DNA from: Cytophagales bacterium
Lineage (GTDB): Bacteria; Bacteroidota; Bacteroidia; Cytophagales; Microscillaceae
Direction of reading: 5' to 3'
NCBI GenBank assembly: GCA_013297825.1
Contig: JAAFIN010000147.1
Location: forward strand, 1 to 12,746
DNA length: 12,746 nt
Below the pieces are notes generated by a model. It did no database searches, was not told where the DNA came from, and worked only from the letters and a program-made list of their open reading frames with translations. Of this stretch, positions 9,373-10,803 are shown in pieces (positions within the stretch are counted from its first letter, which is position 1; every line of letters begins with the position of its first letter). Position numbers and translations under genes: made by a program.

Positions 9373-10803
9373 ATGAAAAATTTTCTTCTAATTCATTTAC
9401 TATTTTTTGGAATTTTTTTATTTTCCAACAAAATATTTGCACAATCAAATTTGGACAAAGTACCATTTTATTTGTCAGTAGAAAGTGCATTGAAAGAACC
9501 TGATAAAGTACGAAAATTAGACCTTACTTGGCAATATATGCTTCAACTTCCTGAAAGCATTACCAAATTGCCCAATGTAGAAGTGTTAAATTTGGGTTGG
9601 AACAAACTTACCGTTTTGCCCCAAAACATAACTTCTATGTCTAAATTAAGACAAATCGCATTAAACGATAACCCAAAACTTAATTTGGCGGTTGTTTGTA
9701 AATTATTAGGGAAAATAAAATCTTTGAGAGAACTTTATATTGGTTGGCAACAAATGAAAGATATTCCTGATGAACTTGCAGATATGCAATATTTGGAAAA
9801 ATTGGATATTTTGTGCGATTCTACGCTCAGTCTTCCACACGTACTTTCGGTAATTGGCAAATTAAAACGCCTAAATAGTTTGGGGCTTGCACGTAATCAC
9901 TTATCTGAATTACATGAGAATATTGGAACACTTGTCAATCTTTCTGCATTAGATTTGAGTATTAACCAACTTAAAGCATTACCAAGCCAAATGGGAAAAT
10001 TACGTAATTTGCGTATTTTAAACCTCAAAAATAACGAATTACCAGATATTCCTTCTTGTCTTACGAGTATGAGTGATTTGGAAAATCTAAATATGGCAGG
10101 CAATAAGTTAGACCAACTTTCAAGCAGAATTGGCTCATTTTCAAGCCTTAGAATGTTGGATTTGAGCGAAAATTATTTAAAAACTATTTCAGGTAGAATT
10201 TTTGACCTCAAAAGCCTTAGAAGCCTTAATCTTGCCAATAATAGCATAGAACAAGTGCCTTCAAGCATCAGCAACCTTACAAAATTAGAATATCTCAATC
10301 TCAATCGTAACAGTACCAAAGAACTTCCTTCAAGCATTACACACTTTAAACATCTTCAAACGCTTGAACTTGCAGGAAATCCAGATGTTAATTTTTTAAA
10401 ATTTTTTCAAGGAACACACCATTTTTTTCCTGAATTATACAATCTTAATTTAAGCGAAAACAAACTTGATTCTATTTCTGCGAATGTTGGCAATATAAAA
10501 ACACTTCAAATTCTCAAACTTTCTAATAATGCGATTACAGGCTTGCCAAGCAGTTTTGAAAAATTGCATAGTTTGCAAGAACTTTATCTAAATAATAACC
10601 AACTCAAAGAATTTCCAGAGGAAATTTTGAGTATGGGCAATTTAGAAAAACTTGTATTGGATTTTAATAAAATTGGTTATATTCCTGAAGAAATTAAAAA
10701 ATTGAAAAAATTAAAGGAAATTTCTATGAAATTTAATCCTTTGTCTGAAAAACAAATTGAAAAACTTAAAACGCTTTTGCCAGAAGTAAAGATTGTAATT
10801 TAA
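9373..10803 (+). CDS. Secreted leucine-rich repeat (LRR) protein, eukaryote-like (SHOC2/RSU1-type LRRs). A candidate host-interaction effector.
   Basis: The ORF is 476 aa. It has a classical Sec signal peptide (MKNFLLIHLLFFGIFLFSNKIFA|Q). This is followed by about 17 consecutive 22-24-aa repeats of the form LxxLxxLxLxxNxLxxLPxxIxxL, for example LSALDLSINQLKALPSQMGKLRNLRILNLKNNELPDIPSCLTSMSDLENLNMAGNKLDQL. Confidence 0.85.
   Translation: MKNFLLIHLLFFGIFLFSNKIFAQSNLDKVPFYLSVESALKEPDKVRKLDLTWQYMLQLPESITKLPNVEVLNLGWNKLTVLPQNITSMSKLRQIALNDNPKLNLAVVCKLLGKIKSLRELYIGWQQMKDIPDELADMQYLEKLDILCDSTLSLPHVLSVIGKLKRLNSLGLARNHLSELHENIGTLVNLSALDLSINQLKALPSQMGKLRNLRILNLKNNELPDIPSCLTSMSDLENLNMAGNKLDQLSSRIGSFSSLRMLDLSENYLKTISGRIFDLKSLRSLNLANNSIEQVPSSISNLTKLEYLNLNRNSTKELPSSITHFKHLQTLELAGNPDVNFLKFFQGTHHFFPELYNLNLSENKLDSISANVGNIKTLQILKLSNNAITGLPSSFEKLHSLQELYLNNNQLKEFPEEILSMGNLEKLVLDFNKIGYIPEEIKKLKKLKEISMKFNPLSEKQIEKLKTLLPEVKIVI

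What the first reader, a model, noticed from the sequence alone, without database searches (positions are those of the whole stretch)
9373..10803. Secreted eukaryote-like LRR protein near the MVP gene
A 476-aa protein with a Sec signal peptide consists almost entirely of about 17 SHOC2/RSU1-type leucine-rich repeats (LxxLxLxxNxLxxLP). LRRs of this type are typical of eukaryotic signalling scaffolds. In bacteria they occur in effectors of intracellular pathogens and symbionts. Taken with the MVP homolog, the window points to an organism with an unusual complement of eukaryote-derived genes, possibly host-associated.
Basis: partly seen in the sequence, partly recalled or inferred. Interest (0 to 1): 0.5.

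Follow-up and report, generated by a model that had tools for sequence, protein, structure and literature searches.

The report
Ordinary exported bacterial leucine-rich-repeat protein
The gene encodes an exported, repeat-only binding protein of a bacterial type best known from Leptospira, carried by an environmental Cytophagales bacterium; it is not eukaryote-derived, not linked to the neighbouring vault-protein gene, and fairly ordinary.

Summary
ORF 9373-10803 (+) encodes 476 aa: a 23-residue Sec/signal-peptidase-I leader, then 18 leucine-rich repeats, mostly 23 residues, with N- and C-terminal caps and no other domain.

The interpretation does not hold.
- The best sequence and fold matches are Leptospira LRR proteins (LIC11098, 273 bits, both caps aligned). 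SHOC2 scores 168 bits on core repeats only.
- Two collinear orthologs (46-47% identity) occur on bacterial metagenome contigs. All three leaders end in A|Q, the Bacteroidetes "Q-rule".
- GC3 and codon use match the neighbouring genes.
- The window is from Cytophagales (LpxC/FabZ fusion, T9SS cargo neighbour; nearest MAG has MVP at 85% and LpxC/FabZ at 90% identity).
- MVP is widespread in such bacteria. None of 45 bacterial MVP loci has this LRR gene within 10 kb. Here a terminator and an opposite-strand gene separate the two.
- There is no T9SS sorting domain, lipobox, cell-wall anchor or effector domain.

Most likely it is a non-enzymatic ligand binder in the envelope or medium. Invariant concave residues cluster on LRR1-5 and include three tryptophans. 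The ligand and final compartment are unknown.

It is a new member of a known kind, of low interest.

The parts
9373..10803 (+). Complete CDS, 476 aa plus stop: exported LRR-only protein
   Evidence: ORF list and translation. Pfam LRR_14/LRR_8/LRR_4 at E=1e-39 to 1e-48. An identical protein is on Logan contig SRR9948921_6726.
9373..9441 (+). Signal peptide, aa 1-23 (MKNFLLIHLLFFGIFLFSNKIFA), predicted SPase I cleavage before Gln24
   Evidence: Rule-based n/h/c-region analysis. AF2 models it as a lone helix followed by a low-confidence linker at aa 21-33. The orthologs keep leaders ending IEA|Q and ATA|Q. Window proteins 11955-12383 and 3764-4525 also end FA|Q. Q-rule literature: PMC5837995. There is no Cys lipobox.
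9442..9507 (+). Linker and N-terminal cap, aa 24-45 (…FYLSVESALKEPDKV…)
   Evidence: Aligns to the N-cap of Leptospira LIC11098 (query 30-95 to chain residues 6-71). FYLS.E.AL..P..V is invariant in the three orthologs. AF2 models a helix at aa 36-41.
9508..9870 (+). LRR1-5, aa 46-166: the most conserved concave face; candidate ligand-binding patch with invariant W53, W76, W125 (LRR position 8), Q54, Y55, N98, N100, P101, C148-D149-S150
   Evidence: Per-position conservation across the three orthologs: 16 of 30 concave positions are invariant in LRR1-5, against 11 of 72 in LRR6-17. The role in binding is inferred, not shown.
9871..10710 (+). LRR6-17, aa 167-446: mostly canonical 23-residue repeats LxxLxLxxNxLxxLPxxIxxLxx; LRR13 (aa 328-354) is a 27-residue irregular repeat
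   Evidence: Repeat parse. AF2 strand periodicity. No 69-bp tandem repeat is detectable at DNA level, so the repeats are old and diverged.
10711..10800 (+). LRR18 plus C-terminal cap, aa 447-476 (LKEISMKFNPLSEKQIEKLKTLLPEVKIVI)
   Evidence: Aligns to the C-cap of LIC11098 (NPLPSEKIARIRKLLPQC). It is strongly conserved in the orthologs. The same motif ends other bacterial LRR proteins (P0103, P0150, P0260). It leaves no room for a T9SS CTD, and no CTD hit appears even at E<=10.
9126..9372 (.). AT-rich divergent intergenic region shared with the lipoprotein-like gene 8664-9125 (-); presumed promoters
   Evidence: Sequence. One weak sigma-70-like match at 9166-9195 (+), which is no more than shuffles give. 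An exact Bacteroidota-type TAnnTTTG occurs only on the minus strand at 9169-9176. The LRR gene's promoter was not identified.

Best explanation
This is a vertically inherited bacterial gene of an environmental Cytophagales bacterium. It encodes a non-enzymatic protein made only of leucine-rich repeats. It belongs to the 23-residue-repeat class whose best-studied bacterial members are the Leptospira LRR proteins; eukaryotic SHOC2, RSU1 and LRRC40 use the same repeat class.

Proposed mechanism, with each step marked:
- Shown by sequence rules and conservation: a 23-residue leader directs Sec export, and signal peptidase I cuts before Gln24.
- Inferred from the Bacteroidetes Q-rule: Gln24 is probably cyclised to pyroglutamate.
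- Predicted with high confidence: the mature ~51 kDa protein (pI ~8.9) folds into an 18-repeat curved solenoid closed by an N-cap helix and a C-cap.
- Inferred: it works by binding a partner on its concave face, most likely on LRR1-5. The invariant residues of the ortholog group cluster there, including a ladder of three tryptophans.
- Shown by absence of motifs: it has no lipobox, no T9SS C-terminal sorting domain, no beta-barrel and no anchor. Its default destination is therefore the periplasm or cell envelope. Release to the outside (for example by a type II system or vesicles, as seen for Leptospira relatives) remains possible.

It has no functional connection to the neighbouring MVP gene.
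For: - Anatomy.
- Family: the best PDB sequence match is LIC11098 (4U08; E=4.6e-80, 273 bits, N-cap and C-cap aligned), against SHOC2 at 168 bits on core repeats only. The Foldseek top four are 4U08, 4U09 (two chains) and 4U06, followed by SHOC2.
- Bacterial ancestry: two full-length collinear orthologs at 46-47% identity share the three irregular repeats, both caps and the leader. GC3 is 0.24 against 0.20-0.28 for neighbouring genes, with similar Leu codon use. The repeats are not recently amplified at DNA level.
- Export: all three ortholog leaders end A|Q. Two other proteins in the window end FA|Q. Q-rule literature: PMC5837995, PMC10653852.
- No onward-sorting signal: no Por_Secre_tail or other CTD, while neighbour 11955-12383 does carry one and serves as a positive control.
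- Conserved patch: 16/30 invariant concave positions in LRR1-5 against 11/72 in LRR6-17.
- Organism: bifunctional LpxC/FabZ. The nearest genome is a Cytophagales MAG (MVP 85%, LpxC/FabZ 90%).
- Independence from MVP.
- Leptospira relatives are experimentally extracellular binders of host matrix and cadherins (PMC11674859, PMC11629876).
Against: - No signal-peptide predictor could be run, so the leader is judged by rules and conservation only.
- The ligand is unknown. The tryptophan ladder could be structural, stabilising the irregular N-terminal repeats, rather than a binding site.
- Only three orthologs support the conservation map.
- The final compartment is undetermined.
- The taxonomy of the two ortholog contigs was not established directly; it is inferred only from the Q-rule leaders and from GC of 35% and 41%.
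- The rest of the source genome was not available. LRR protein abundance, secretion systems and lifestyle of this organism are therefore inferred from relatives.
Confidence: 0.7

Rival explanations
1. Surface or extracellular adhesin. After Sec export the protein crosses the outer membrane (type II secretion, vesicles or an unknown route). It then binds a surface molecule of another organism, such as prey, a cyanobacterial or algal partner, or matrix. This would parallel the Leptospira LRR proteins that bind cadherins, glycosaminoglycans and fibronectin.
For: Its closest characterised relatives (LIC10831, LIC11098, LIC11051, LIC11505) were found extracellularly and bind host components (PMC11674859 and PMC11629876). 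The mature protein has a basic pI of 8.9. Related bacteria are gliding, surface-associated Cytophagales.
Against: No outer-membrane sorting signal of any known kind is present. There is no T9SS CTD, although the organism uses T9SS (neighbouring cargo gene), and no lipobox. The most conserved face is shared among orthologs only 46-47% identical from different contexts. That fits a conserved, possibly endogenous, partner better than a variable foreign target.
Confidence: 0.25
2. One reading: a eukaryote-derived LRR effector delivered into or onto a eukaryotic host cell by a host-associated bacterium, as part of a set of eukaryote-like genes that includes MVP.
For: The repeat class is shared with SHOC2, LRRC40 and RSU1. 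Eukaryotic proteins appear among the hits (158 bits against 191 bits for the best prokaryotic hit). NCBIfam Xop effector models give sub-threshold LRR matches. LRR proteins are enriched in some intracellular Cytophagales such as Amoebophilus (my own knowledge, not tested here).
Against: Bacterial relatives are closer, with family-specific caps, and bacterial orthologs reach 47% identity. Effector models score 128-164 bits against cut-offs of 450-600. No catalytic or effector domain is present. Export is through a Sec leader. Composition is native. The closest genomes are environmental MAGs and free-living genera. MVP is common in such bacteria and is not linked to this gene.
Confidence: 0.04
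3. Cytoplasmic LRR scaffold. The hydrophobic N-terminus is not a cleaved leader, or the true start lies downstream, and the protein works inside the cell like the many LRR-TIR, LRR-ROC/COR and LRR-HEAT proteins among its database hits.
For: Many of the best-scoring database hits lack signal peptides and carry cytoplasmic signalling domains such as TIR, Roc/COR and HEAT.
Against: The leader is conserved in position and cleavage motif in both orthologs. It matches the FA|Q junction of two other exported proteins in the window. No additional domain is present. No PADLOC defence-system model matches.
Confidence: 0.03

Closest known systems
Leptospira interrogans LRR proteins LIC11098, LIC12759 and LIC10831 (PDB 4U08, 4U09, 4U06; Miras et al. 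2015), and L. santarosai LSS01692 (7YJW)
   Same: Best sequence match (273 bits, E=4.6e-80) and best fold matches. Shares the 23-residue repeat LxxLxLxxNxLxxLPxxIxxLxx, the N-cap motif ALKxPxxVRxLxL, the C-cap NPLsxxxIxxxxxLLPxxxI, an LRR-only architecture and an N-terminal export signal.
   Different: About 30% identity only, so a family-level relative rather than an ortholog. The host is a Cytophagales bacterium, not a spirochaete pathogen. It has three irregular repeats (LRR3, 5, 13) and a Trp ladder on LRR1, 2 and 4 that LIC11098 lacks. Binding to animal matrix or cadherins is not expected, and the ligand is unknown.
SHOC2 / RSU1 / LRRC40 / LRRD1 (eukaryotic cytosolic LRR scaffolds)
   Same: Same repeat class and a similar solenoid of ~18-20 repeats. 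SHOC2 scores 168 bits with Foldseek E~1e-21 and TM ~0.6. RSU1's nearest structural neighbour is reported to be LIC11098 (PMC8141872).
   Different: The eukaryotic proteins are cytosolic and have no signal peptide. The alignments cover only the core repeats (query ~170-459), not the caps. Identity is 25-28%, well below the bacterial orthologs.
Type III effectors with LRR domains (Xanthomonas XopL, XopAC/AvrAC, XopAE; Salmonella/Shigella SspH, SlrP, IpaH)
   Same: LRR segments of similar type give partial matches.
   Different: Scores are far below the family cut-offs (164/600, 160/450, 128/500, 27/1243). There is no E3-ligase, Fic or XL-box domain. Export is through a Sec leader rather than a T3SS signal.
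Listeria internalins (InlA/InlB) and Bacteroidota surface LRR proteins (BspA-type LRR_5; T9SS-sorted internalin-like proteins)
   Same: Exported bacterial LRR proteins used for binding. InlA appears as a distant fold match (Foldseek E~1e-15).
   Different: There is no inter-repeat Ig-like domain, no LPXTG or GW anchor, and no 22-residue repeat. LRR_5 scores 16.5 bits against a cut-off of 27.7. No T9SS CTD is present.

Membership tests
Leucine-rich repeat superfamily | Tandem 20-30-residue repeats with LxxLxLxxNxL forming a beta-strand/loop solenoid | tested here: met
   Pfam LRR_14/LRR_8/LRR_4 score well above their gathering cut-offs. 18 repeats parsed. The AF2 solenoid has pLDDT 90.9 and 18 evenly spaced strands.
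Leptospira-type bacterial LRR proteins (4U06/4U08/4U09 group) | 23-residue repeat with LP at positions 14-15 (LxxLxLxxNxLxxLPxxIxxLxx) | tested here: met
   13 of 18 repeats are exactly 23 aa and fit this consensus. I derived the feature list from the alignments here; the defining paper (Miras et al. 2015) could not be read.
Leptospira-type bacterial LRR proteins (4U06/4U08/4U09 group) | Closest relative by sequence and by fold among solved structures | tested here: met
   LIC11098 gives E=4.6e-80 and 273 bits, ranked first of 139. Foldseek ranks 1-4 are 4U08, 4U09 (two chains) and 4U06.
Leptospira-type bacterial LRR proteins (4U06/4U08/4U09 group) | Family-specific N-cap (ALKNPxxVRxLxL) and C-cap (NPLxxxxIxxxxxLLPxC) | tested here: met
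   Both caps are aligned by phmmer: query 30-95 to chain 6-71, and query 356-472 to chain 276-392.
Leptospira-type bacterial LRR proteins (4U06/4U08/4U09 group) | Extracellular location and binding of host matrix or cadherins | not testable with these tools
   Reported for LIC10831, LIC11098, LIC11051 and LIC11505.
SHOC2/RSU1 eukaryotic scaffolds | Cytosolic protein without signal peptide; SHOC2 N-terminal MRAS/PP1C-binding region | tested here: not met
   A conserved cleavable leader is present. SHOC2 alignments cover only query ~170-459.
T3SS LRR effectors (XopL, XopAC, XopAE, SspH/SlrP/IpaH) | Score above the curated NCBIfam cut-off and presence of the effector (E3 ligase, Fic, XL-box) domain | tested here: not met
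   Scores are 163.7/600, 159.6/450, 127.9/500 and 27.1/1243. No non-LRR domain is present.
T3SS LRR effectors (XopL, XopAC, XopAE, SspH/SlrP/IpaH) | A type III secretion system in the same genome | not testable with these tools
   Only 12.7 kb of this genome is available.
Internalins (Listeria class 1) | 22-residue LRRs followed by an inter-repeat Ig-like domain and an LPXTG or GW anchor | tested here: not met
   The repeats are 23 aa. The protein ends in the LRR C-cap at residue 476. NF033189 gives E=0.046 on the C-terminal fragment only.
T9SS cargo proteins | C-terminal sorting domain (TIGR04183/PF18962 or type B) | tested here: not met
   No hit on the full-length protein at E<=0.01 or on its last 76 aa at E<=10. 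Neighbour 11955-12383 does hit PF18962/TIGR04183 and serves as a positive control.
BspA-type (LRR_5) surface proteins of Bacteroidota | LRR_5 repeats above the Pfam gathering score | tested here: not met
   PF13306 scores 16.5 bits against a cut-off of 27.7.
Bacteroidetes Sec/SPI 'Q-rule' substrates | Signal peptide whose cleavage exposes an N-terminal Gln | tested here: met
   IFA|QSN in the window protein; IEA|QS and ATA|QK in the orthologs. The same junction occurs in two other window proteins. The cleavage itself is predicted, not observed.

The most novel reading that the evidence does not exclude
The three collinear orthologs define a previously undescribed, conserved family of Sec-exported LRR proteins in Bacteroidota. 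Their invariant N-terminal face (LRR1-5, with a three-tryptophan ladder and an invariant CDS motif) would recognise one specific conserved ligand. That ligand might be an envelope component tied to gliding or surface life, or a glycan or peptide of a cyanobacterial or algal partner. This would make the protein a dedicated receptor rather than a generic sticky repeat protein.
Probability: 0.12. Interest if true: 0.4.

Novelty: new member of a known kind. Interest (0 to 1): 0.14.

Why it matters
It matters little beyond correct annotation. The result guards against a common over-reading, in which 'eukaryote-like' LRR proteins in bacteria are taken as evidence of host association or gene transfer from eukaryotes. 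This repeat class has its own bacterial lineage with characteristic caps and occurs in environmental Bacteroidota. If the conserved N-terminal face proves to bind a defined envelope or partner ligand, the small ortholog group could become a tractable model for what LRR-only proteins do in non-pathogenic bacteria. That question is largely unexplored.

Tried and rejected
1. **Synteny with MVP.** I ran tblastn of all window proteins against 45 bacterial MVP loci (733 kb). No LRR476 hit appeared even at E<0.1, so linkage is rejected.

2. **Synteny with the nearest genome (GCA_031425615.1).** LpxC/FabZ (90% identity) and MVP (85%) lie on different contigs there. Only the small T9SS-cargo gene is shared near LpxC/FabZ, and no LRR ortholog is present.

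3. **Large protein searches.** The single-sequence and profile searches of the 5.8-billion-protein set were swamped by generic LRR proteins. They returned nothing above 36% identity and not even the query itself.

4. **Exhaustive search of 1.84 billion representatives.** It gave 102,993 hits dominated by giant multi-LRR proteins and no protein above 41% identity. This shows only that the repeat class is extremely common and that close orthologs are rare or absent in that library. The two orthologs were found only by the metagenome pattern scan.

5. **Cluster look-up for organism names.** The names were truncated and unhelpful.

6. **Sample provenance.** Four paper searches for SRR9948921 and related accessions or MAG labels found nothing usable.

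7. **Defence-system models (PADLOC).** No hit for this protein or its neighbours.

8. **T9SS CTD at permissive thresholds.** None found.

9. **DNA-level tandem repeats of 69 bp in the gene.** None found.

10. **Promoter search.** There are no more sigma-70-like sites than in shuffles, and no exact TAnnTTTG on the + strand upstream.

11. **Cap-motif regex across the fetched hits.** Only a few carry them (P0103 has both, plus a Q-rule leader). The fetched set is biased to long arrays, so this says little about distribution.

12. **Context of two smaller LRR genes carrying a signal peptide and the N-cap motif (P0103 also has the C-cap; P0103, P0044).** Both are stand-alone genes among housekeeping genes, which was uninformative.
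Full report
**Observation.** Pfam LRR models match at E=1e-39 to 1e-48, and no non-LRR domain is detected. My repeat parse gives 18 repeats. Thirteen are exactly 23 residues and follow LxxLxLxxNxLxxLPxxIxxLxx. The irregular ones are LRR3 (26 aa), LRR5 (26 aa), LRR13 (27 aa) and the 30-residue terminal repeat with its cap. An AlphaFold2 model built on 30 aligned sequences has mean pLDDT 90.9 and pTM 0.86. It shows 18 evenly spaced beta-strands, an N-terminal cap helix (aa 36-41), a C-terminal cap helix and strand (aa 459-475), and a detached N-terminal helix (aa 2-25) followed by a low-confidence linker.

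**Signal peptide.** The N-terminus MKNFLLIHLLFFGIFLFSNKIFA|QSN has the n, h and c regions of a signal-peptidase-I substrate and no lipobox cysteine. I could not run SignalP. Three independent observations support the leader.
- Both orthologs keep a leader at the same place, ending IEA|Q and ATA|Q.
- Two other exported proteins in the window, the T9SS cargo at 11955-12383 and a putative outer-membrane protein at 3764-4525, end IFA|Q and TFA|Q.
- A glutamine at +1 is the published Bacteroidetes 'Q-rule' for Sec/SPI substrates (PMC5837995, PMC10653852).

**Organism.** The window is bacterial and belongs to Bacteroidota. It encodes the bifunctional LpxC/FabZ fusion (NF009667, 699 bits) and a protein with a T9SS C-terminal sorting domain. 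The MVP homolog at 6082-8571 finds 45 loci in bacterial genomes. The closest is a Cytophagales MAG (85% identity). Bernardetiaceae, Raineyaceae, Thermoflexibacter and Bernardetia follow at 62-70%, then Riflebacteria, Desulfobacterales and Nannocystis. The same Cytophagales MAG (GCA_031425615.1) carries LpxC/FabZ at 90% identity. The window equals a complete 12,746-bp NCBI contig. The identical LRR protein also occurs on a 2.5-kb Logan contig from run SRR9948921. I could not establish the sample's origin. The relatives are environmental MAGs and free-living genera, and nothing found points to an obligate host association.

**Closest relatives of the protein.** Among solved structures the best sequence match is Leptospira interrogans LIC11098 (4U08; E=4.6e-80, 273 bits). 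LRRD1 follows at 205 bits, LIC12759 at 187, and SHOC2 and LIC10831 at about 167. The LIC11098 alignment includes the N-cap (query FYLSVESALKEPDKVRKLDL against YYRNITEALKNPQNVRILNL). It also includes the C-cap (NPLSEKQIEKLKTLLPEV against NPLPSEKIARIRKLLPQC). SHOC2 aligns only over the core repeats, about 170-459. Foldseek against the PDB ranks 4U08, 4U09 (two chains) and 4U06 first, then SHOC2. The literature independently notes that RSU1's nearest structural neighbour is LIC11098 (PMC8141872). That class is shared between bacteria and eukaryotes, and this protein carries the bacterial caps.

**Orthologs.** The large protein searches were swamped by generic LRR proteins. There are 102,993 representative clusters at E<=0.001, and none exceeds 41% identity. 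A pattern scan of JGI metagenome contigs found two genuine orthologs: L052:994-2436 and L053:7884-9344. They are 46-47% identical over the whole length, with only 1-3-residue indels. They share the leader, the N-cap, all three irregular repeats (ALNDNP.L.L; ILCDS; GN..VNFLKYF) and the C-cap. The best eukaryotic hits are 25-32% identical over partial lengths. The gene's GC (0.305), GC3 (0.24) and Leu codon use are typical of the window. No 69-bp DNA periodicity remains. These results together argue for an old, native bacterial gene, not a recent acquisition from a eukaryote.

**Relation to MVP and other neighbours.**
- MVP ends at 8571 and is followed by a strong bidirectional terminator (8595-8632).
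- A lipoprotein-like gene (8664-9125) lies on the opposite strand between MVP and the LRR gene.
- None of the 45 bacterial MVP loci contains a homolog of the LRR protein within 10 kb, even at E<0.1.
- The two ortholog loci have no MVP and share no neighbour with the window or with each other.
- In the nearest genome MVP and LpxC/FabZ are on different contigs, so the window's gene order is not conserved.
- Bacterial MVP homologs in gliding Cytophagales, Myxococcales and cyanobacteria have been described before (bioRxiv 10.1101/872010).

The juxtaposition is coincidental. It says nothing about a 'complement of eukaryote-derived genes'.

**Destination and mechanism.** Beyond the Sec leader there is no onward-sorting signal. 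There is no T9SS CTD in the full-length protein or, at E<=10, in its last 76 residues. No lipobox, anchor or beta-barrel is present. NCBIfam models of T3SS LRR effectors match only through their repeats and fall far below their cut-offs. No PADLOC model matches. In a diderm cell the default location is therefore the periplasm or envelope. Release outside cannot be excluded, and it is what has been reported for several Leptospira relatives that bind host matrix, glycosaminoglycans and cadherins (PMC11674859, PMC11629876).

I mapped invariance across the three orthologs onto repeat positions.

| Position class | Invariant positions |
|---|---|
| Core (structural) | 66 of 90 (73%) |
| Concave, all repeats | 31 of 108 (29%) |
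| Concave, LRR1-5 | 16 of 30 |
| Concave, LRR6-17 | 11 of 72 |
| Concave, LRR18 | 4 of 6 |

The conserved patch on LRR1-5 includes W53, W76 and W125 at repeat position 8, Q54, Y55, N98, N100, P101 and C148-D149-S150. I infer that this N-terminal concave face is the functional binding site for a partner conserved across the lineages. The alternative is that these residues stabilise the irregular repeats.

**Verdict.** The interpretation as a eukaryote-derived effector, linked to MVP in a host-associated organism, is not supported. The protein is a new, moderately divergent member of a known kind: Sec-exported bacterial LRR-only proteins of the Leptospira, SHOC2-like repeat class. It sits in an environmental Cytophagales genome. 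Its ligand and exact compartment remain unknown. Interest is low.

Noticed in passing
window 6082-8571 (+): 829-aa major vault protein homolog (Pfam MVP_shoulder E=1e-31, Vault_3, Band_7) with its own bidirectional terminator at 8595-8632. Homologs at 50-85% identity occur in 42 bacterial genome loci (Cytophagales, Riflebacteria, Desulfobacterales, Moduliflexus-like), and at about 27-30% in Nannocystis. Its gene neighbourhood is not conserved. Bacterial MVPs are already described in bioRxiv 10.1101/872010.
   Followed up: partly
window 1593-2101: An extremely AT-rich region (~17% GC) holds a tandem array with period 21/42 nt (unit like TTTTAYTAAATAATAAAYAA, about 9-16 copies). It lies immediately downstream of the stop of LpxC/FabZ. 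It is flanked by inverted copies of an AAGGTTCAAAGTT-type repeat (arms 1609-1674 and 2056-2121, 82% complementary). Function unknown.
   Followed up: no
window 1188-1441: A perfect 127-nt direct tandem duplication (1188-1314 = 1315-1441, 100% identity), overlapping the short ORFs 1047-1337 and 1252-1620 on the minus strand. It could be a recent duplication or an assembly artefact.
   Followed up: no
window 1609-1687, 2050-2121, 3689-3770, 10797-10840, 11459-11522: A short dispersed repeat of the form AAGGTTYAAA(A)GTTYAAGGTT occurs in both orientations at the ends of genes, including right after the LRR stop codon and right upstream of the HAD hydrolase start. It looks like a REP-like intergenic element of this genome.
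   Followed up: no
window 9396-9430 and 12005-12039: The signal-peptide coding regions of the LRR protein and of the T9SS-cargo protein 11955-12383 are 80% identical over 35 nt (…FGIF..SN.IFA|Q). The putative outer-membrane protein 3764-4525 also has TFA|Q. All SPI-type leaders in the window follow the Bacteroidetes Q-rule.
   Followed up: partly
window 2100-3491 (-), compared with L049 and L047: In a 79%-identical relative (L049) LpxC/FabZ sits in the canonical lpxD-lpxC/fabZ-lpxA cluster. In the window, and in the 90%-identical nearest genome (L047), it is detached from lpxD and lpxA and lies in different contexts. This indicates extensive local rearrangement in this lineage.
   Followed up: partly
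window 8664-9125 (-) and 5233-5799 (-): Two small predicted lipoproteins (leaders …VALS|C and …LAFCATS|C) have no Pfam, NCBIfam or PADLOC match. The first is transcribed divergently from the LRR gene and co-occurs with it on the Logan contig L001, but it is absent from both ortholog loci.
   Followed up: partly
L053 7073-7717 (-), 9463-10041 (+), 10070-10450 (+): In one ortholog locus the LRR gene is flanked on both sides by DUF6272 paralogs, followed by a SiaC-family regulatory phosphoprotein gene. This arrangement is not seen in the window or in L052.
   Followed up: no
hits P0003, P0005, P0007, P0009, P0015, P0018, P0021, P0022, P0027, P0082: A recurrent group of ~450-800-aa proteins without signal peptides has a conserved N-terminus (…P.KIYEDFR…LLI.LIENIDDD…). 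Most carry a HEAT_2 domain followed by the same class of LRRs. One is annotated as coming from a Promethearchaeota archaeon. They are among the top hits to this protein but are architecturally unrelated to it.
   Followed up: no
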